6,914 nt of DNA from a virus (lineage: Duplodnaviria; Heunggongvirae; Uroviricota; Caudoviricetes), in the IMG/VR virus record IMGVR_UViG_3300029234_000076; one strand, given 5' to 3'. Both the position numbers and the translations under genes were made by a program. The notes under the pieces were generated by a model that was not told the DNA's origin, did no database searches, and saw nothing but the letters and a program-made list of their open reading frames with translations. Below are positions 1-6,914 of the stretch, in pieces (within the stretch, counting starts at the first letter, position 1; each line of letters opens with the position of its first letter).

Positions 1-292
1 TCCTGTTTACCTCTTTCTCAGGAAGTTTAGTCTCCAGGATTCCCGGGGCGGTTCATTTACCACTGGCTTTCCACATATCAGTGAGGCAGATCATGCCATC
101 TTCACCGATACGAATTGGTTAATTGAAGAGGGTTAATGATTTCATAGCGTGTACCTACTCTTTGAAATGAACCTTTGCCGCACAGGAAACCAGCCCACCG
201 AGGCTCGCCAGCACTAACTGGTATCCTCAAAGGCCCATTCCAAAGGGGCAGGTTCGGTGTAAAAAACATGCGTTGCGGTACGCATTTATTGC

Positions 293-314
293 AAAAAGCC
301 CCGCATCGCGAGGC
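293..314 (-). terminator. Putative intrinsic terminator downstream of Rz/Rz1 (end of lysis cassette)
   Basis: On the minus strand, a GC-rich hairpin (plus 298-304 gccccgc, loop atc, 308-314 gcgaggc; one G-U wobble) is immediately followed by UUUUU (plus 293-297 aaaaa). It lies about 35-55 nt downstream of the Rz stop at 347-349. Confidence 0.35.
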
Positions 315-346
315 TCATTAAATGGACTTTGTGATTTGCAAAAAAA

Positions 347-805
347 TTATTTCAGGCATTGCGTCCTGATGTATTCCTGCAGGTAGTTAACCTGCGCGGT
401 TATCTTGTCGATTCCACTTCGGAGACGGTAATAATTGAGTTCAGCATCTGCTGTAAGTCCTGGGCTTTCTCCATCGCCCATGCCGCTGGCTCCGGTCGTT
501 GACTTTGCACAGGTGGCGGCGACTTGCAGGCGCTTACGCCCAGCAGAAACATCAGCACGGAGACTTTCGATAGTCGCGTTAGCATCAGCAAGCTCCTTTG
601 TGTATCTTGCATCGAGTTCTGCTACATCACGTTGACGCTTCCGCATGTCAGCGATGGTGGCGTTCGCCTTCTCCAGTTCTCTGACATTTTTGTCGCGCTG
701 GGCTTTGTAGGTAATGGCGTTATCACGGTAATGATTAACAGCCCATGACAGGCAGACGATGATGCAGATAACCAGAGCGGAGATAATCGCGGTTACTCTG
801 CTCAT
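347..805 (-). CDS. Rz: Rz i-spanin (inner-membrane spanin subunit), lambda Rz-like
   Basis: The translation [40 protein letters not shown]... matches the lambda Rz N-terminus as I recall it, with an N-terminal TM helix and a C-terminal region ending QCLK. The ATG at 803-805 overlaps the endolysin TGA stop (802-804) as ATGA; the listed ORF start at 817 is four codons upstream and less likely. Confidence 0.85.
400..585 (-). CDS. Rz1: Rz1 o-spanin (outer-membrane lipoprotein), embedded in Rz in the +1 frame
   Basis: The ORF lies wholly inside Rz in another frame. An internal Met at 583-585 is preceded by AAGGAG with a 7-nt spacer. The product [33 protein letters not shown]... has a lipoprotein signal peptide with a lipobox (VSAC) and a proline-rich mature part, typical of Rz1. 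Confidence 0.75.
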
Positions 806-1299
806 TGTTTCCCCCACAAACAGACTTCACGCTCAATCTCACGGCGAGTCATCAGTCCTTTCCATTGATTACCGCCAGCGTATGTCCAGCGCCGTAGCTG
901 ATCACATGCGCCTTTGATATCGCCCTGGTTTATTTTGCGAAGAAGCGTCGATGTTCTGAAATTGCCAGCACCCACGTTGTAAACGAATGAGTAAAGAGCG
1001 CCGCGCGTTGTTTCCGGTATATCGACTTCGATGTACGGGTTAATTTGTCTGGCGACAGTGGCAAGGTCTTTATTCAAGAGTGCTTTGCATTCTGCTTTGG
1101 TATACGTTTTACCGAGCATGATGTCTTTTCCTGTATGCCCGTGACATACAGTCCATACACCAACAATATCTTTATATGGTATGTAGCTGACACCTTCCAG
1201 ACCATCGTCACCACTCGGACCAGTGATGAGCACAGACGCTATGGCAACAGCCCCACCACCAATAGCAGCTGCTACAGCCTTGCGTAATGATGGCGACAT
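802..1299 (-). CDS. R: SAR endolysin (phage 21 R-type lysozyme, T4-lysozyme-like muramidase)
   Basis: 165 aa. The N-terminus [20 protein letters not shown] is a Gly/Ala-rich signal-anchor-release segment, followed by [25 protein letters not shown] (lysozyme catalytic region). It is near-identical to P21 R / DLP12 RrrD as recalled. Its start shares one nt with the S stop. Confidence 0.9.
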
Positions 1300-1514
1300 T
1301 ATTCACCTCTCGCAGCCTTACGCTTATCTTCTTTAATCTTGAAATAAAGGTTTGTCAGGTACGTCAGCAGGCCAAATACCAGGCTACCCAGCACTCCAAT
1401 TGCCGCCCACTGTGAGGGCGTGACTTTATCTAGCAGCTGTAAAAACCAGTACCCGGCACTACCTGCTGAGGTGCCATAGGCGACACCCGTTGTTAACTTA
1501 TCCATGGATTTCAT
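1299..1514 (-). CDS. S: Pinholin (phage 21 S21-type class II holin) with dual-start motif
   Basis: 71 aa, MKSMDK... (Met1 and Met4 dual start, antiholin/holin), with two TM segments (TMD1 Gly/Ala-rich SAR-like, TMD2 [18 protein letters not shown]) and a charged C-terminus [13 protein letters not shown]. Strong SD GAGGTGG upstream of the ATG at 1512-1514. Confidence 0.9.
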
Positions 1515-1625
1515 AACCCCACCTCGCAGACAAAGCGGGTGTAAATTGAGGGAATACTACGAAACGTAACAGACTCGAAGTCAGTGAATAACTCAGGTAT
1601 TGGGTTATCAGCTAATATCGAGACT

Positions 1626-1659
1626 CAAAAAATGGAAAAACCCGCTCGACGGCGGGTTT
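1626..1659 (-). terminator. Putative intrinsic terminator on the late-gene strand about 110 nt upstream of S (tR'-like candidate)
   Basis: On the minus strand: stem aaacccgc / gcgggttt (plus 1652-1659 and 1638-1645) with a 6-nt loop, followed by UUCCAUUUUUU. The position relative to S parallels lambda tR' upstream of S. Confidence 0.35.
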
Positions 1660-1699
1660 AAGCTGTGTGACGAAGTAACCACTCTTAACAGCATAACCA

Positions 1700-2087
1700 A
1701 TTTTTTACGTACGTAAACCACTAAATGATATTTGCGAGAATGCTACCGAGTATTGAAAACACCACTACAAATACATAAGCAAATCTCAACAAATAACCAA
1801 CAAATAATTTCCAGTGTTATTTTTAGCCGATTTAAATTGAACCTTCAAATTATAGAGCACTTATAAATAACAACCGTTAGTATAAATTGGCTAATAGATT
1901 TATTTTTATTCAGCCAAGAGCTATGAATAGGATTCGATAGAAAAAAGTTCAGATAAAAATAGAGATCTACTTCACAAATCAAACGAGAAACCAAAACTTA
2001 CATCTTGAAATAATCACATTGATTAGATGAATATTTATCGCGCAGTGACATCATTTTTTAATAATAGTTCAAAAAAAAGGGCTCACG
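1700..2087 (+). promoter_or_regulatory. AT-rich upstream regulatory region and promoter of the porin gene (exact -35/-10 not resolved)
   Basis: About 390 bp, very AT-rich, with no ORF of meaningful size, immediately upstream of the porin ATG. SD AAGGG lies 7 nt before the ATG at 2088. It contains an OmpR-box-like sequence at 1996-2021 (see findings). Confidence 0.4.
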
Positions 2088-3170
2088 ATGAAAAAATTAA
2101 CAGTGGCAATTTCTGCTGTAGCTGCATCAGTACTGATGGCGATGTCTGCTCAGGCAGCTGAAATTTATAATAAAGACAGTAACAAGCTGGATCTGTACGG
2201 GAAAGTTAATGCTAAGCACTACTTCTCCTCTAATGATGCAGATGATGGTGATACTACTTATGCCCGTCTTGGCTTCAAAGGTGAAACCCAAATCAACGAT
2301 CAACTGACTGGTTTCGGTCAGTGGGAATATGAATTCAAAGGCAACCGCGCTGAATCTCAAGGTTCTTCCAAAGACAAAACCCGTCTTGCATTTGCAGGCC
2401 TGAAATTTGGTGATTACGGCTCAATCGATTACGGCCGTAACTACGGTGTAGCATACGACATCGGTGCGTGGACTGACGTCCTGCCAGAATTCGGTGGTGA
2501 TACCTGGACCCAAACAGATGTGTTCATGACTGGTCGCACTACTGGTGTTGCAACTTATCGTAACAACGACTTCTTTGGTCTGGTCGATGGCCTGAACTTT
2601 GCTGCTCAGTATCAGGGTAAAAATGACCGCACTGACGTAACTGAAGCCAATGGTGATGGTTTCGGTTTCTCCACTACTTATGAGTATGAAGGATTCGGCG
2701 TGGGTGCAACCTATGCTAAATCAGATCGCACTGACGGTCAGGTCGCCTATGGTAAGAGCAAATTCAATGCCTCCGGCAAAAATGCGGAAGTATGGGCTGC
2801 AGGCCTGAAATATGATGCGAACAATATCTATCTGGCTACCACATATTCTGAAACTCAGAATATGACCGTTTTTGGTAATAACCATATTGCAAACAAAGCA
2901 CAAAACTTTGAAGCAGTAGCACAATATCAGTTTGACTTCGGTCTGCGCCCATCTGTTGCTTACCTTCAGTCAAAAGGTAAAGACCTTGGTGTTCATGGTG
3001 ACCGAGACTTAGTCAAGTATGTCGATGTCGGTGCTACTTACTACTTTAATAAAAACATGTCCACTTTTGTTGATTACAAAATCAACTTAATTGACGATAG
3101 TAAGTTTACCAAAACAGCTGGTATTGATACTGATGACATCGTTGCTGTAGGTCTGGTTTACCAGTTCTAA
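2088..3170 (+). CDS. nmpC: General bacterial porin, OmpC/OmpF/PhoE family; prophage-borne NmpC/Lc/OmpD-type
   Basis: 360 aa. Signal peptide [23 protein letters not shown]|AEIYNK, conserved porin motifs ([60 protein letters not shown]-terminal VGLVYQF). Oriented opposite to the flanking phage genes and visibly lower in GC than its neighbours. Confidence 0.9.
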
Positions 3171-3332
3171 TCTGATTACGAAAAAGATATGTTGCGGGAG
3201 GCGTTGCCTCCCCAACATATAAGTGGCTCCCTCAAGCCACTTCCTTTAGAAGCACAACCTTGCTTCTAACTATATAAACCTTCTGTTATATATTACCCTT
3301 TATTTTTGGGGGCGTCTCAACGCCCCATTTTT
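3171..3332 (+). ncRNA. ipeX: Structured 3' UTR of the porin gene, IpeX-like sRNA element
   Basis: Four consecutive stem-loops directly after the porin stop: 3187-3220 (15-bp stem with one bulged C), 3221-3242 (8-bp stem), 3246-3269 (9-bp stem), and 3308-3326 followed by a U-tract. This matches the published description of ipeX as lying in the untranslated region between the nmpC/lc stop codon and its rho-independent terminator. Exact 5' end unknown. Confidence 0.5.
3308..3332 (+). terminator. Rho-independent terminator of the porin / IpeX-like transcript
   Basis: Stem ggggcg (3309-3314) / cgcccc (3321-3326), loop tctcaa, followed by auuuuu (3327-3332). The U-tract is on the plus strand only. 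Confidence 0.7.
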
Positions 3333-3359
3333 AATAATTTTTAGTAAACAATTGGCATA

Positions 3360-3743
3360 TTAATTAGAGTTATTAACAACGATATCCATCTCTAACCAGA
3401 TATCTAATGCCATTAACATCCCTTCAATTATGCCCTCAGCTTTTTGTAACCTTTTCCCGATATAACCATCAGAGCAGCAATGCTTACCTGCCAGTGACAT
3501 GAATGTCATACCGACTACATAATAATCTACTAATAAATCGTGCAAATCGCTGTTGTTCTTTTTCAGACGGGCCATGCACCCGCAAATGATCATCGCGTCA
3601 TCGTCACAACATTGCGGGCGAGATTTTACTTTTGAAGGAATTAATCCCTTAAAACCGGCGGCAATGGACGACCAGGTCACATCTTCATGATTATTAGCCG
3701 CCCACGCTCCCCAACGCTCAAGAACCATCTGAATATCACGCAT
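3360..3743 (-). CDS. Q: Late-gene antiterminator Q (phage 21/82-type, QuuD-like)
   Basis: 127 aa from the ATG at 3741-3743: [24 protein letters not shown]...[16 protein letters not shown]...HCCSDGY, with Cys clusters consistent with the zinc-binding Q family. It sits in the classical position upstream of the lysis genes. The ORF-track start at 3758 is a TTG five codons upstream; the ATG is preferred. Confidence 0.85.
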
Positions 3744-3760
3744 CAACTTTCTCCACAAAA

Positions 3761-4756
3761 TCAGGCCAGCACACCAATCGTCAGCGCACGATCGATAAAA
3801 CGAAATATCAGCTCCAGCTGGGAGCCATACTTCTCTTCGAATGCCACATTATCCGCATGCAGCTCGTCGTGATGCTTTCTGCACAAAGGCAACACAAAGA
3901 GGTCATGCGCTTTTGTCCCCATTCCACCCTGACCGTGGCCTATCAGGTGGTGGGGATCATCAGCAGGTTTTCCACAACATGCGCACGGCTGCGTCTTAAC
4001 CCATCGCGTGTACTTTTCATTAACCCAGCGGCGACGTTTTGGGCGTAACATAAAAGAGTCCGGCGACTCCGGATCCACTTTCAGCGCCAGCACCTTTTTC
4101 GCTTTATCCTGGATGATGCTGGTGGCAGGAACCGAAGGCACCAGGTCACTTTCCCGGGTGACAGACGGCACAACAGGCTTCGGTAATCTCAGTGCCTTAC
4201 GGGCTGCACTTTCCGGTAAGGCATCCGCCAGATCATTACGAATCAGCCACCAGCACAGTTCCGGCATTGTCACAACGTGACTGTCATCAAAACCGAGATC
4301 CCGACGCACAACAGACAACACCCAGCGGGCACAGTTATCCGTTGCCATTGATTCCAGCCGTTCCGTGAACTGATCGCGCAGTTGGTTATCGCAGTGCCAG
4401 CACAGACGGATTGCGCCCGGCGCGTGTCGCATTGTGGTCATGTTCTCGCTGTGCCAGTCGGAATGAGGCCACTGGCAGCCTTTTTCACGAAGTAACCAGC
4501 TTTCAAGACATTCCACGCCACCAGCACGACGGATCACTGCCTCATTGCGGAACACGGCCCGAACGGCAGGATCATCCGCCAGCGGTTGTGATGCAGCCGG
4601 AACGGCACCACTGGCAAAAGATGAATAACGTTCCGGCTCAGGCTCCAGCAGGACACGCCCCTGCATAAACAGGGGCATCAGCTCTGAACCTGGCCTGAAC
4701 AATACGATCCCCATACGCGGGGCAATTTCAGGGGTCAGTAGTGCTCTCACGGTCAC
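3761..4756 (-). CDS. DUF968-like prophage protein (Qin YdfU-type) with C-terminal HNH-like Cys/His motif
   Basis: 331 aa. The C-terminal region [43 protein letters not shown] has a C-x2-C...HH...CxxHH arrangement reminiscent of HNH/zinc-ribbon nucleases. The start is GTG at 4754-4756 (or GTG at 4748-4750), one nt after the upstream gene's stop, suggesting translational coupling. Family assignment is from memory. Confidence 0.7.
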
Positions 4757-4757
4757 C

Positions 4758-5567
4758 TCAATGAACGGTATCGAGCAGCTTTAACAGCTCAGGGAATCGG
4801 GATTCGAAGAAATGCGGCTGCGTCTCGCGCGGATTTGCGGGACTGGTGATGTTCTTGCCGAACATGCAGCCTTTCGCTGTCAGCGACCAGAATTTTTTGA
4901 TGTTGTTAATCGCGGTACGGCTGTATCGTTCGCGTTGTTCAACGATCCCCAGCTTCGCCATCTGGTGATATGCCTGATTAGCCGTCAGGCGGATACCATA
5001 CTGCTTCAGCAGTGCACTCAGCGACAGCGTGGGGCGGCTTGAGCCATCAGGCGCGTCAGCAGGTGCATCAATGGCATAGCGCGGTGCCAGATTCGGTAAG
5101 CCAACAGCCTCCTGGAGTTTCTGACAGGCCCCAAGCACAGATGAGTTAGACAGATTTAACTCCCGGCGCATAAAGTCCAGCAGAATCACGCCAGCCTGCA
5201 TCTTGTCAGCAGCCTGTCCGGATAACTTTTCCGGCGCGCTGGTTACCATATCGAAAGTACGGATCACCTTCAGATGGAATGACGGGCTGATCCACATTGC
5301 ATAGGCATACACCAGTTCCTTACAGACATACGTTCCCCGTTCATTTCCCCCATGAATCACGCTCACCGGGTCAACACCCAAATTCTGGGTGTTGGTTAAT
5401 TCATGAACAAGCTCAACAGTTTGTTGGCTGGAAAGAAACTTTCCTGGCTCCTTGGTTCTGGCATTTGCACCAGATGCTACTGCTGCGCGATGCAGATCGT
5501 TCAGGCTGTAACGCCCATAAGCATCACGACGAACTTCAATACCATCAATGACCATCAGATTATTCAT
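4758..5567 (-). CDS. KilA-N domain protein with C-terminal ANT/KilA-C-like region (putative antirepressor)
   Basis: 269 aa. N-terminal MVIDGIEVRRDAYGRYSLNDLHRAAVASG...ERGTYVCKELVYAYAMWISPSFHLKVIRTFD fits KilA-N. The C-terminal part (LLKQYGIRLTANQAYHQMAKLGIV...KKFWSLTAKG) resembles the ANT/KilA-C DNA-binding module. Strong SD AGAGGAG upstream of the ATG at 5565-5567. Confidence 0.8.
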   Translation of the reverse strand: MNNLMVIDGIEVRRDAYGRYSLNDLHRAAVASGANARTKEPGKFLSSQQTVELVHELTNTQNLGVDPVSVIHGGNERGTYVCKELVYAYAMWISPSFHLKVIRTFDMVTSAPEKLSGQAADKMQAGVILLDFMRRELNLSNSSVLGACQKLQEAVGLPNLAPRYAIDAPADAPDGSSRPTLSLSALLKQYGIRLTANQAYHQMAKLGIVEQRERYSRTAINNIKKFWSLTAKGCMFGKNITSPANPRETQPHFFESRFPELLKLLDTVH

Positions 5568-5586
5568 ACTTCGTTTCTCCTCTTAA

Positions 5587-5976
5587 TCAGGCAGCTGCAC
5601 CCGCCGTTTTCTCGTACTTACTGATAGTGATCTCGACCTTCCCTTCCGGGATAACCGGTCCCCACTCCACCAGCATTCTTTTCACCTGACTGTCGTCTTC
5701 CCACACCCCCGCGTGGGTCAGGGCGTCAAACAGCGCCTTGTTATAGTTGTCCAGATCGCGGATCCTGTTATCCGGAGGAAACAACACGATCTCCACTGAA
5801 GCAGGTGCCGACGTTGGTTTCGGCAGACGACGTAACTGCTCAACTATTGCTGCGCACGCCGCGCTCTGGAATTTTCGCCCCGCCGCGCTTATCAGGCTCT
5901 TACCAGCAAACGCCCCTTTGTTGGGGTGTCGCCAGTACGTGTTCACGCTGGGCGGAAAAGGCAGGATCAGCTTCAT
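5587..5976 (-). CDS. rusA: RusA-family Holliday junction resolvase
   Basis: 129 aa. The motif pattern LPFPPSVNTYWRH...RDLDNYNKALFDALTHAGVWEDDSQV parallels E. coli RusA (LPWPPSNNRYYRH...[26 protein letters not shown]). The start ATG overlaps the upstream gene's TGA (ATGA at 5973-5976). Confidence 0.85.
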   Translation of the reverse strand: MKLILPFPPSVNTYWRHPNKGAFAGKSLISAAGRKFQSAACAAIVEQLRRLPKPTSAPASVEIVLFPPDNRIRDLDNYNKALFDALTHAGVWEDDSQVKRMLVEWGPVIPEGKVEITISKYEKTAGAAA

Positions 5977-6299
5977 ACTTTCAGGCCCCTCTCATGTAAC
6001 CAGTGGGCTGCACGCAGCCTTGCGTTTTCCTCACCGGCAAGCAGTGAGCGGATAATCCCGACCGCCTCGCTGTCGTCGTCCTTCACCGCGGTATGAAGCG
6101 TGATGCCCCGGGCCACGCCACGCTTTATCGTGATGACGCCTTTTTTCTCCAGTGCGCGAAGATGCTCCACCGCTGCATTCACTGAACGGTATCCCAGCAT
6201 GGTTGCCACCTCCTGATTGGTTGGCGGGAAGCCACGTTCTTTCTGATAAGAAATCAGCATATCCAGCACCTGCTGCTGGCATTGAGTTAACGTCGTCAT
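5973..6299 (-). CDS. LexA N-terminal DNA-binding-domain-only protein (no S24 peptidase domain)
   Basis: 108 aa. Residues 1-68 align by eye with the E. coli LexA N-terminus at roughly half of positions, including the recognition-helix region (RSVNAAVEHLRAL versus LexA RSPNAAEEHLKAL) and the GxxRGI wing. The remaining ~40 aa show no peptidase S24 motifs. ATGA overlaps at both ends (6296-6299 and 5973-5976). Confidence 0.7.
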   Translation of the reverse strand: MTTLTQCQQQVLDMLISYQKERGFPPTNQEVATMLGYRSVNAAVEHLRALEKKGVITIKRGVARGITLHTAVKDDDSEAVGIIRSLLAGEENARLRAAHWLHERGLKV

Positions 6300-6899
6300 G
6301 CCGCCATCTCCCTGACCAGTTTTTCTGCCTGCTGGCGAACCTGCGCCAGAAAGGCCTCACCACATGCCTCAAGTTCATCGCGCCCGATGTAGCTGATTGC
6401 CGGTCCCTTCCAGGTCTTGTCGAAAACAGCAATAGCACCAGCGAAGAAAGCGCCTGTCGGCACCTGCTTCTCATCCTTCGGGATAAACCAGGCAGGCAGT
6501 TCAAAACCAATACGCCCGCGAATAAAAGCAATATGATCTGCATCTTCCGGCCACCACACTTGCTGGTGGCAGCTTTGATCAGGAAAACATAGCGCCCGCC
6601 TTTATCACGCATGGCACTGGCATGCTTCATGATGTAACGCATGCCGGTGATGTATTGCCCCTCATGCTGACTGGCGCGGCTGTATGGGGGATTACCAAAG
6701 GCAGCACCTTTAAGCTCCGCAAGGCGTTCTGACCAGTCATGCGCCAGCGCGTTGTCTTCCGCCGTGTAATACGCAGCACATTTGGCGTTATCACCGTCAG
6801 TGAACAGATCCAGAACAAACGGGCCAAACAGGGTGTTAATTGAACCGCCCCGGGTTTCCTGGAGAGTGTTTTATCTGTGAACTCAGGCTGCCAGATCAT
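6296..6899 (-). pseudogene. Phage N6-adenine DNA methyltransferase (Dam-like, NPPY motif), apparently split over three reading frames
   Basis: My manual translation gives MIWQPEFTDKTL (frame A from ATG 6897-6899), then ...SINTLFGPFVLDLFTDGDNAKCAAYYTAEDNALAHDWSE...FGNPPYSR...GGRYVFLIKAATS (frame B, about 6870 to 6562), then WWPEDADHIAFIRGRIGFELPAW...VREMAA (frame C, 6559-6296). The FGPF...NPPYS...WW...FIRGR order is that of phage Dam-like methyltransferases as I recall them. Frame junctions fall in short G/C runs (about 6855-6868 and 6560-6570), so this is either a genuine pseudogene or homopolymer sequencing error. Confidence 0.5.
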
Positions 6900-6914
6900 C
6901 GTTTCCGATGGAAG

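What the first reader, a model, noticed from the sequence alone, without database searches (positions are those of the whole stretch)
5973..6299. Truncated LexA-like gene: LexA DNA-binding domain without the autocleavage domain, coupled to rusA
The 108-aa product retains a LexA-type winged-HTH with a near-identical recognition helix, so it plausibly recognises SOS-box-like operators (CTGT-N8-ACAG), but it lacks the S24 peptidase/dimerisation domain that makes LexA RecA-cleavable. A phage-encoded, uncleavable LexA DNA-binding module could compete with host LexA at SOS boxes, or repress a phage target (for example the neighbouring antirepressor-like gene) in a way that is not relieved by RecA. 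It sits in a translationally coupled chain, methyltransferase to LexA-like to RusA, by ATGA overlaps. Its C-terminal ~40 residues (AVKDDDSEAVGIIRSLLAGEENARLRAAHWLHERGLKV) are unassigned and could supply dimerisation. I do not know of a characterised member of this arrangement; function is inference.
Basis: partly seen in the sequence, partly recalled or inferred. Interest (0 to 1): 0.7.

Follow-up and report, generated by a model that had tools for sequence, protein, structure and literature searches.

The report
Phage LexA DNA-binding domain without protease
This is an intact copy of a very common but never-tested prophage gene that has the DNA-binding head of the SOS repressor LexA and a small helical tail instead of the self-cleaving domain. 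It could act as a RecA-proof stand-in for LexA, but here it sits in a decayed, IS-flanked prophage fragment.

Summary
ORF 5973..6299(-) encodes 108 aa. Residues 1-65 match Pfam LexA_DNA_bind (E=2.9e-19), there is no Peptidase_S24 domain, and 4-nt ATGA overlaps lie on both sides.

It is not a broken lexA. It matches phrog_362 end to end, and relatives are consistently about 100-112 aa. It occurs in 2233 of 5426 complete E. coli genomes and in 218 phage records (SfV orf42, mEp460_046, many Stx2 phages), annotated "LexA family transcriptional regulator".

The AlphaFold model superposes on the E. coli LexA DNA-binding domain (1.4 Å, 50% identity). Four of five DNA-contact residues are kept (E44 becomes V). 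The C-terminal two-helix tail is conserved down to 39% identity.

rusA follows directly in 60 of 110 related loci. In a Klebsiella-phage-like group the gene is third in an SOS-box-promoter operon that starts with dinI.

I found no experimental study. The closest characterised analogue is Bacillus phage GIL01 gp6, a truncated LexA homologue that activates transcription.

Best guess, unproven (0.4): a RecA-insensitive SOS-box binder that dimerises through its tail.

In this window the upstream methyltransferase is a pseudogene (IS-truncated and frameshifted), no SOS box is present, and both window ends are IS3-family ends.

The parts
5973..6299 (-). LexA-like gene, 108 aa plus stop (member of phrog_362, annotated 'LexA family transcriptional regulator')
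6096..6299 (-). Codons 1-68: LexA-type winged helix-turn-helix (H6-22, H28-35, recognition helix H40-52, wing strands 56-59 and 65-68)
   Evidence: Pfam 1-65. AF2 model. Foldseek 3jso rmsd 1.4 Å over 68 columns, 50% identity.
5976..6095 (-). Codons 69-108: acidic low-confidence linker (69-75), then two conserved helices (74-87, 93-103). Proposed dimerisation tail.
   Evidence: (A97 and L101 invariant down to 39% identity)
6308..6312 (-). Shine-Dalgarno GGGAG, 8 nt upstream of the ATG
   Evidence: read from the sequence
5587..5976 (-). rusA (Holliday-junction resolvase). Its ATG overlaps the LexA-like stop (ATGA).
   Evidence: Adjacency is conserved in 60 of 110 related loci.
6296..6841 (-). 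Remnant of the phage N-6-adenine methyltransferase (dam). It is 5'-truncated at 6841/6842 and has a 1-bp deletion at 6561/6562, so it is a pseudogene.
   Evidence: Strain YJ6 annotation reads 'frameshifted'.
6842..6914 (-). End of an IS3-family (IS1203-like) element. The transposase reads on the minus strand toward dam'-lexA-like-rusA.
1..55 (-). End of a second IS3-family copy (start side of its transposase, which reads away from the window)
3360..5567 (-). Downstream genes of the same module: KilA-N (4758..5567), DUF968/HNH (3761..4756), antiterminator Q (3360..3758)

Best explanation
The gene encodes a small phage transcription factor derived from a proteobacterial LexA. It has the LexA winged-HTH plus a 30-residue helical hairpin that replaces the S24 domain.

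Proposed mechanism (inferred, not shown):
- The hairpin provides dimerisation.
- The dimer binds SOS-box-type operators (CTGT-N8-ACAG).
- With no cleavage site-plus-protease module, it is insensitive to activated RecA.
- It is made from the phage early-right operon in E. coli-type phages, or from a genuine SOS promoter in a Klebsiella-phage-like group.
- It would therefore appear just when host LexA has been destroyed, and re-close LexA-controlled promoters. Targets would be the phage's own SOS-box genes (dinI-like, umuD'-like, a late-region methylase) and possibly the host SOS regulon.

In this window the gene is intact but lies in an IS-flanked prophage remnant, cut off from the phage promoter. 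Any expression would depend on read-through from the adjacent IS1203-like transposase gene.
For: **Shown**
- LexA DNA-binding domain, E=2.9e-19.
- The model superposes on the LexA-DNA complex 3jso at 1.4 Å with 50% identity.
- Of the DNA-contacting residues S39, N41, A42, E44, E45 (PMC3091678), four are kept: S39, N41, A42, E45.
- No S24 domain is present.
- Both domains are under purifying selection: window versus the Citrobacter homologue gives dN/dS of about 0.06, and the tail has dN of about 0.3 with dS saturated.
- The tail pattern is conserved in relatives at 39-49% identity.
- Tandem double-DBD proteins exist (P0128, P0129, P0138). I read this as hinting that this domain works in pairs.

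**Context**
- In loci L021-L042 and L049 of the P0132 group, the gene (same phrog_362, E=8e-40) follows dinI-like and a 101-aa ORF. In L038 the operon is preceded by a terminator-like sequence and a promoter (TTGAAC-17-TATACT) that overlaps TACTGTTTATTTATACAGTA.
- In several of these loci a second, near-perfect SOS-box promoter about 480 nt upstream drives a UmuD'-like gene.
- mEp460 carries 4 near-consensus SOS boxes. Only the N8 spacing of CTGT...ACAG is enriched (5 observed against 0.67 expected).
Against: - No DNA-binding or dimerisation data exist for any member.
- The window has no SOS box.
- E. coli-type loci have none immediately upstream of the gene. The few near-consensus boxes seen there lie about 2.9-3.8 kb away.
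- Position 44 (E in LexA, a contact residue) is never E in the subfamily. LexA R28 is never basic in the subfamily either. Specificity or affinity may therefore differ.
- SOS boxes in front of dinI- and umuD-like genes would be there for host LexA anyway. Gifsy-2 has the dinI operon without this gene (PMC3121763), and other Klebsiella phages have dinI-orf101 without it.
- The one characterised truncated phage LexA homologue, GIL01 gp6, binds a different site and activates transcription (PMC6182141).
Confidence: 0.4

Rival explanations
1. It is a regulator with its own, non-SOS operator. It keeps the LexA fold but has diverged in specificity, and it switches a phage promoter on or off, as GIL01 gp6 activates the late promoter P3.
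For: - gp6 is a 66-aa LexA-DBD-only protein that binds a site overlapping the -35 element of P3 and activates it (PMC6182141).
- A profile comparison of the family with gp6 gives 96.6% probability, E=5e-10, 32% identity over 63 columns.
- The subfamily consistently differs from LexA at E44 and R28.
- E. coli-type loci have no SOS box close to the gene.
- Stand-alone LexA DBDs of 65-150 aa are common in phages.
Against: - The recognition helix is much closer to enterobacterial LexA (9 of 12 identical; S39, N41, A42, E45 kept) than to gp6 (SHKTAHRYLMQL).
- No alternative CTGT/ACAG spacing or other candidate operator emerged in mEp460 or SfV.
- Late control in these phages is already provided by Q.
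Confidence: 0.3
2. It is an accessory of RusA rather than a transcription factor. The two genes form a unit, and the winged-HTH protein targets, loads or restrains the Holliday-junction resolvase on phage DNA.
For: - rusA starts within the last codons of the LexA-like gene, usually with a 4-nt overlap, in 60 of 110 related loci, and lies within one gene in 80 of 110.
- The pairing persists when the upstream gene changes: dam in E. coli phages, PerC-like in Citrobacter, MT-A70 plus a small ORF in Enterobacter.
Against: - About 30 loci (P0132 group) have the gene without rusA.
- Gene order in lambdoid nin regions is modular, so adjacency alone is weak evidence.
- RusA is active alone in the literature (my knowledge, not checked here).
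- The single apparent LexA-like::RusA fusion (L104) is a frameshift artefact.
Confidence: 0.12
3. In this particular window the gene is an inert passenger. It is intact by chance in a decaying, IS-flanked prophage fragment, and is either not expressed or without consequence for the cell.
For: - Both window ends are IS3-family ends.
- dam is truncated and frameshifted.
- The replication and immunity regions and pR are absent from the window.
- No sigma-70-like promoter precedes the gene.
Against: - The ORF, its Shine-Dalgarno sequence and rusA are intact, and the gene is 100% identical to copies in other genomes.
- The IS1203-like transposase gene points into the operon, so read-through is possible.
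- This says nothing about the function of the family.
Confidence: 0.15
4. It is the 5' fragment of a disrupted full-length lexA-like gene.
For: TIGR00498 aligns through position 91, including an 'AGE' that lines up with the LexA A84-G85 cleavage site.
Against: - It matches the 106-position phrog_362 end to end.
- Lengths are uniform at about 104-108 aa across Escherichia, Shigella, Salmonella, Citrobacter and Hafnia.
- The stop overlaps the rusA start in all of these.
- The tail is conserved and helical.
- The 'AG' is not conserved in the wider family.
Confidence: 0.01

Closest known systems
E. coli LexA repressor (N-terminal domain; PDB 1lea, 3jso)
   Same: Same winged-HTH fold (1.4 Å rmsd, about 50% identity over 68 residues). 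Contact residues S39, N41, A42, E45 are retained.
   Different: - No S24 protease/dimerisation domain, no Ser119/Lys156, and no conserved Ala-Gly cleavage site.
- E44 becomes V and R28 becomes N.
- It has an unrelated two-helix C-terminal tail.
- It is encoded in a phage nin region and overlaps rusA.
Bacillus phage GIL01 gp6 (truncated LexA homologue, activator of late promoter P3; PMC6182141)
   Same: Phage-encoded, LexA DNA-binding domain only, no cleavage domain. Homologous at profile level (hhalign 96.6%, E=5e-10).
   Different: - gp6 is 66 aa with no tail.
- It comes from a tectivirus of a Gram-positive host and has a different recognition helix.
- It has been shown to bind its own site and activate transcription.
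- No pairwise BLAST similarity to the window protein.
phrog_362, named 'LexA family transcriptional regulator' by NCBI PGAP (SfV orf42, mEp460_046, Stx2-phage 'repressor, lexA family')
   Same: The window protein is a member: end-to-end match at E=1.4e-59, 97-100% identical copies, and the same dam-lexA-like-rusA-kilA-N-DUF968-Q module.
   Different: Nothing in the gene itself. The window copy has a damaged neighbourhood (dam pseudogene, IS ends). The family has annotation only, and no experiments were found.
Gifsy-type LexA-controlled dinI-antirepressor-irsA operon (PMC3121763)
   Same: In the P0132 (Klebsiella-phage-like) group, the operon holding the LexA-like gene has the same layout. It lies upstream of the late-gene regulator, is preceded by a terminator-like sequence in L038, and has an SOS-box promoter with dinI as first gene.
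   Different: Gifsy-2 has no LexA-like gene. The ORFs flanking the LexA-like gene show no similarity to the antirepressor GftA. The E. coli-type module in the window has no dinI or SOS box next to it.

Membership tests
Canonical LexA repressor (TIGR00498 equivalog) | N-terminal LexA_DNA_bind winged HTH | tested here: met
   PF01726 residues 1-65, E=2.9e-19. Foldseek 3jso, 1.4 Å.
Canonical LexA repressor (TIGR00498 equivalog) | C-terminal Peptidase_S24 domain with the Ser/Lys dyad | tested here: not met
   No S24 hit. The protein ends at residue 108. TIGR00498 scores 70.8 bits against a cutoff of 110.95 and matches only positions 1-91 of 203.
Canonical LexA repressor (TIGR00498 equivalog) | Ala-Gly self-cleavage site in the hinge | tested here: not met
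   A88-G89 aligns with LexA A84-G85 only at low posterior probability. It is not conserved in the wider subfamily, and no protease domain is present to cut it.
Canonical LexA repressor (TIGR00498 equivalog) | Binds CTGT-N8-ACAG SOS boxes as a dimer | not testable with these tools
   Four of five contact residues are kept.
phrog_362 (short phage 'LexA family transcriptional regulator') | End-to-end match to the family profile, length about 104-112 aa | tested here: met
   Residues 1-108 against positions 1-106 of 106, E=1.4e-59. Homologue lengths.
phrog_362 (short phage 'LexA family transcriptional regulator') | Conserved C-terminal two-helix tail after an acidic linker | tested here: met
   Alignments A1-A3. 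AF2 helices 74-87 and 93-103, block pLDDT about 87.
phrog_362 (short phage 'LexA family transcriptional regulator') | Location in the nin region between the replication genes and Q, usually overlapping rusA | tested here: met
   Window gene order. mEp460, SfV, YJ6, Citrobacter and Enterobacter loci. 60 of 110 loci have rusA adjacent.
GIL01 gp6-type truncated LexA activator | Stand-alone LexA DBD encoded by a phage | tested here: met
   The window protein has an extra tail.
GIL01 gp6-type truncated LexA activator | Close sequence relationship or shared recognition helix with gp6 | tested here: not met
   BLASTP finds no alignment. Homology appears only at profile level. Helix 3 is SVNAAVEHLRAL against SHKTAHRYLMQL.
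GIL01 gp6-type truncated LexA activator | Activates a late promoter from a site overlapping the -35 element | not testable with these tools
   Needs reporter or in vitro transcription assays.

The most novel reading that the evidence does not exclude
A prophage gene present in about 40% of complete E. coli genomes, including many Stx2 phages, encodes a RecA-proof LexA surrogate. It dimerises through a new helical hairpin, occupies SOS boxes after host LexA has been cleaved, and so shuts the SOS regulon (and SOS-controlled phage genes or rival SOS-inducible elements) back down during induction. In effect it would be a phage-encoded 'anti-SOS' switch that also works with DinI-like and UmuD'-like phage proteins.
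Probability: 0.3. Interest if true: 0.65.

Novelty: new member of a known kind. Interest (0 to 1): 0.4.

Why it matters
If the protein binds SOS boxes, a large share of E. coli and Shigella prophages, Stx2 phages included, would carry an uncleavable LexA mimic. Such a protein could reshape the host DNA-damage response during induction. That would bear on Stx-phage induction by antibiotics, on SOS mutagenesis, and on competition among co-resident SOS-inducible elements. If instead it has its own operator, it is an unrecognised regulator of the lambdoid nin/late region. Either outcome can be settled by simple experiments on a small soluble protein. As it stands, the gene is an ordinary, routinely annotated member of an uncharacterised family.

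Tried and rejected
- **SOS boxes in the window.** 3 one-mismatch matches against 2.5 expected, none close to consensus.
- **Other half-site spacings.** CTGT/ACAG spacings of 0-20 nt and direct repeats in mEp460 and SfV: only N8 is enriched.
- **Dedicated promoter.** None found for the gene.
- **Literature.** Searches for any functional study by name, locus tag and accession found only gene lists.
- **Is the P0132-group operon a Gifsy-type antirepressor operon, or is the LexA-like gene irsA?** No similarity of the flanking ORFs to GftA, and Gifsy phages were not among the tblastn hits.
- **Apparent LexA-like::RusA fusion in L104.** It is a frameshift artefact.
- **The 'AGE' aligned to the LexA cleavage site.** Not conserved in the wider family.
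- **The search for related loci with the broad alignment.** It failed because no stretch was conserved enough, so single proteins were used instead.
- **Zhang et al. 2010 LexA-DNA paper.** Not held. Contact residues were taken from PMC3091678 instead.
- **Homodimer structure prediction.** Not possible with the tool's input rules.

Full report
**What is there.** The window is a lambdoid prophage segment read in reverse. On the minus strand it carries a dam-type methyltransferase remnant, the 108-aa ORF at 5973..6299, rusA, a KilA-N gene, a DUF968/HNH gene and antiterminator Q. An ompC-like porin gene follows on the plus strand, then the lysis genes. The ORF matches Pfam LexA_DNA_bind over residues 1-65 (E=2.9e-19) and has no Peptidase_S24 hit. 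NCBI's lexA equivalog model aligns only to its first 91 of 203 positions and scores below cutoff. The ATGA overlaps with the upstream frame (6296-6299) and with rusA (5973-5976) can be read directly in the sequence. A GGGAG Shine-Dalgarno sequence sits 8 nt before the start codon.

**It is a complete gene of a known, widely annotated family.**
- The protein matches phrog_362 ("transcriptional repressor") from first to last residue (E=1.4e-59).
- Close homologues are about 104-108 aa in Escherichia, Shigella, Salmonella, Citrobacter and Hafnia.
- The same DNA occurs in 218 phage records, including SfV (orf42), SfII, mEp460 ("LexA DNA binding domain protein") and many Stx2 phages.
- It occurs in 2233 of 5426 complete E. 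coli genomes, with up to four copies each, annotated "LexA family transcriptional regulator".
- The idea that it is the 5' piece of a broken lexA is refuted.

**Structure and sequence.**
- The AlphaFold model (mean pLDDT 78.8) shows a winged helix-turn-helix, a low-confidence acidic linker (about 69-75) and two helices at 74-87 and 93-103.
- LexA's DNA-contacting residues are S39, N41, A42, E44 and E45 (PMC3091678). The window protein keeps S39, N41, A42 and E45 and has V at position 44.
- An exhaustive profile search found more distant relatives of 106-135 aa (39-49% identity) with the same tail. A97 and L101 are invariant. None has E at position 44 or a basic residue at the position of LexA R28.
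- Comparing the window gene with a 66%-identical Citrobacter homologue gives dN/dS of about 0.06. The tail has dN of about 0.3 with saturated dS. The tail is therefore a constrained part of the protein.
- The "AGE" that lines up with the LexA cleavage site is not conserved in the wider family.
- Proteins with two LexA DNA-binding domains in tandem also exist. I read this as a hint that the domain works in pairs. That the tail supplies pairing here is my inference.

**Genomic context in relatives.**
- Across 110 related loci, rusA starts within the last codons of the LexA-like gene in 60, usually with a 4-nt overlap. It lies one gene further downstream in another 20.
- The pairing survives replacement of the upstream gene: dam in E. 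coli phages, a PerC-like gene in Citrobacter, and an MT-A70 methylase plus a small ORF in Enterobacter, where the protein is only 44% identical.
- A second context was unexpected. In a group of viral contigs related to Klebsiella phages (same phrog_362, E=8e-40) there is no rusA.
- In that group the gene is third in an operon that begins, in L038, with a terminator-like sequence and a textbook SOS promoter. The promoter is TTGAAC-17-TATACT, overlapping TACTGTTTATTTATACAGTA.
- The genes that follow are a DinI-like gene, a 101-aa ORF, the LexA-like gene, a 67-aa ORF, DUF968 and a Q-like gene.
- In several of these loci a second, near-perfect SOS-box promoter about 480 nt upstream drives a UmuD'-like gene.
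- This resembles the LexA-controlled dinI-antirepressor-irsA operon of Gifsy prophages (PMC3121763). However, the flanking ORFs are not similar to the Gifsy antirepressor, and Gifsy-2 lacks the LexA-like gene.

**SOS boxes.**
- The window has none.
- mEp460 has four near-consensus boxes: two at its dinI-like gene, one inside the cI-like gene and one at the start of a late-region methylase gene. SfV has the last of these.
- Only the canonical 8-nt spacing is enriched.
- These sites are expected targets of host LexA in any case, so they only show that potential targets for the phage protein exist.

**Most likely mechanism.** I favour, at about 0.4, a RecA-insensitive LexA surrogate. It would dimerise through its tail and bind SOS-box-type operators. 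It is made either from pR during lytic growth or, in the Klebsiella-like group, from an SOS promoter. It would thus appear when host LexA has been cleaved and re-close LexA-controlled promoters, including its own operon in that group.
- Shown: the fold, the retained contact residues, the missing protease, the constrained tail and the SOS-linked context in one subgroup.
- Inferred: dimerisation, operator specificity and physiological role.

**Rivals.**
- About 0.3: the protein has its own operator. This is the case for GIL01 gp6, a 66-aa truncated LexA homologue that activates the late promoter P3 (PMC6182141). gp6 is related to this family only at profile level.
- About 0.12: the protein is a RusA accessory, suggested by the conserved overlap with rusA.

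**State of this particular copy.**
- Both ends of the window are IS3-family (IS1203-like) ends (1-55 and 6842-6914).
- The methyltransferase has lost its first ~107 nt to the IS junction and has a 1-bp deletion at 6561/6562. It is a pseudogene, as also annotated in strain YJ6.
- The frameshifted reading frame runs out of frame across the LexA-like gene (the 203-aa ORF at 6031..6642).
- No promoter-like site precedes the gene.
- The IS transposase gene points into it, so read-through transcription is the only obvious source of expression.

**Novelty.** I found no experimental work on this family. Papers only list it among Stx-phage genes (PMC8136144, PMC7946995). Stand-alone LexA DNA-binding domains are common in phages, and one (gp6) has been characterised. 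This is therefore a new, uncharacterised member of a known kind, not a new kind. Its interest lies in its abundance and in how easily the hypothesis can be tested.

Noticed in passing
window 1-55 and 6842-6914: Both window ends are ends of IS3-family (IS1203-like) elements in the same orientation, so the 6.8-kb prophage piece (56-6841) is bracketed by two IS copies. The right-hand transposase gene reads toward dam'-lexA-like-rusA. From memory, K-12 rusA is activated by IS insertions upstream (Mahdi et al. 1996), which would be a parallel.
   Followed up: partly
window 6296-6841; indel at 6561/6562: The dam methyltransferase is a pseudogene. Its 5' ~107 nt are replaced at the IS junction, and it has a 1-bp deletion (CAGCGAAGTG to CAGCAAGTG). 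The listed 203-aa ORF at 6031..6642 is the frameshifted dam frame running across the LexA-like gene, not a real gene.
   Followed up: yes
L003 (mEp460) 31970-31989; L002 (E. coli YJ6 prophage) 15267-15286; L066, L074, L083 at about 191: A near-consensus SOS box (TACTGTTTTTACATACAGTA and variants) lies inside the coding region of the cI-like S24 repressor. In mEp460 it encodes ...NTVCKNS... in the linker. It recurs in several phages that also carry the LexA-like gene. For L066, L074 and L083 the cI-like ORF runs off the locus end, so its presence there is inferred. Function unknown.
   Followed up: partly
L003 41021-41040; L004 (SfV) 34170-34189; L018 7436; L044 7826; L055 7550; L057 4147; L058 6796: In mEp460 and SfV an SOS box (TACTGTAAAAATAAACAGTG) overlaps the first codons of the 'DNA methylase' gene (SfV orf48) just after Q. 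The same or a very similar box recurs about 3.4-3.8 kb downstream of the LexA-like gene in five other loci, where the gene map was not checked. In the window this slot holds the porin gene instead.
   Followed up: no
L038 2839-3206 (and L036, L039, L042, L049): A 109-aa UmuD-like protein (phrog_3469) starts at GFPSPA, which is the post-cleavage N-terminus of UmuD'. By eye it appears to lack the SGDSM serine motif. It lies behind a perfect consensus SOS box (TACTGTATATATATACAGTA) within a sigma-70-like promoter. It may be a phage-encoded, pre-activated UmuD' mimic.
   Followed up: partly
proteins P0128 (222 aa), P0129 (141 aa), P0138 (164 aa): Proteins made of two LexA DNA-binding domains in tandem with no S24 domain: covalent pseudo-dimers of the LexA head. 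Their origin and context were not examined.
   Followed up: no
window 2088-3170 (+): An ompC/nmpC-like porin gene (360 aa, annotated 'porin OmpC' in relatives) sits between Q and the holin gene on the opposite strand. This is the slot that holds stx in Stx phages.
   Followed up: no
L104 4001-4702: An apparent LexA-like::RusA fusion ORF (233 aa) in one viral contig. It results from a frameshift in the tail-coding region, so it is an artefact or a decayed copy, not a natural fusion.
   Followed up: yes
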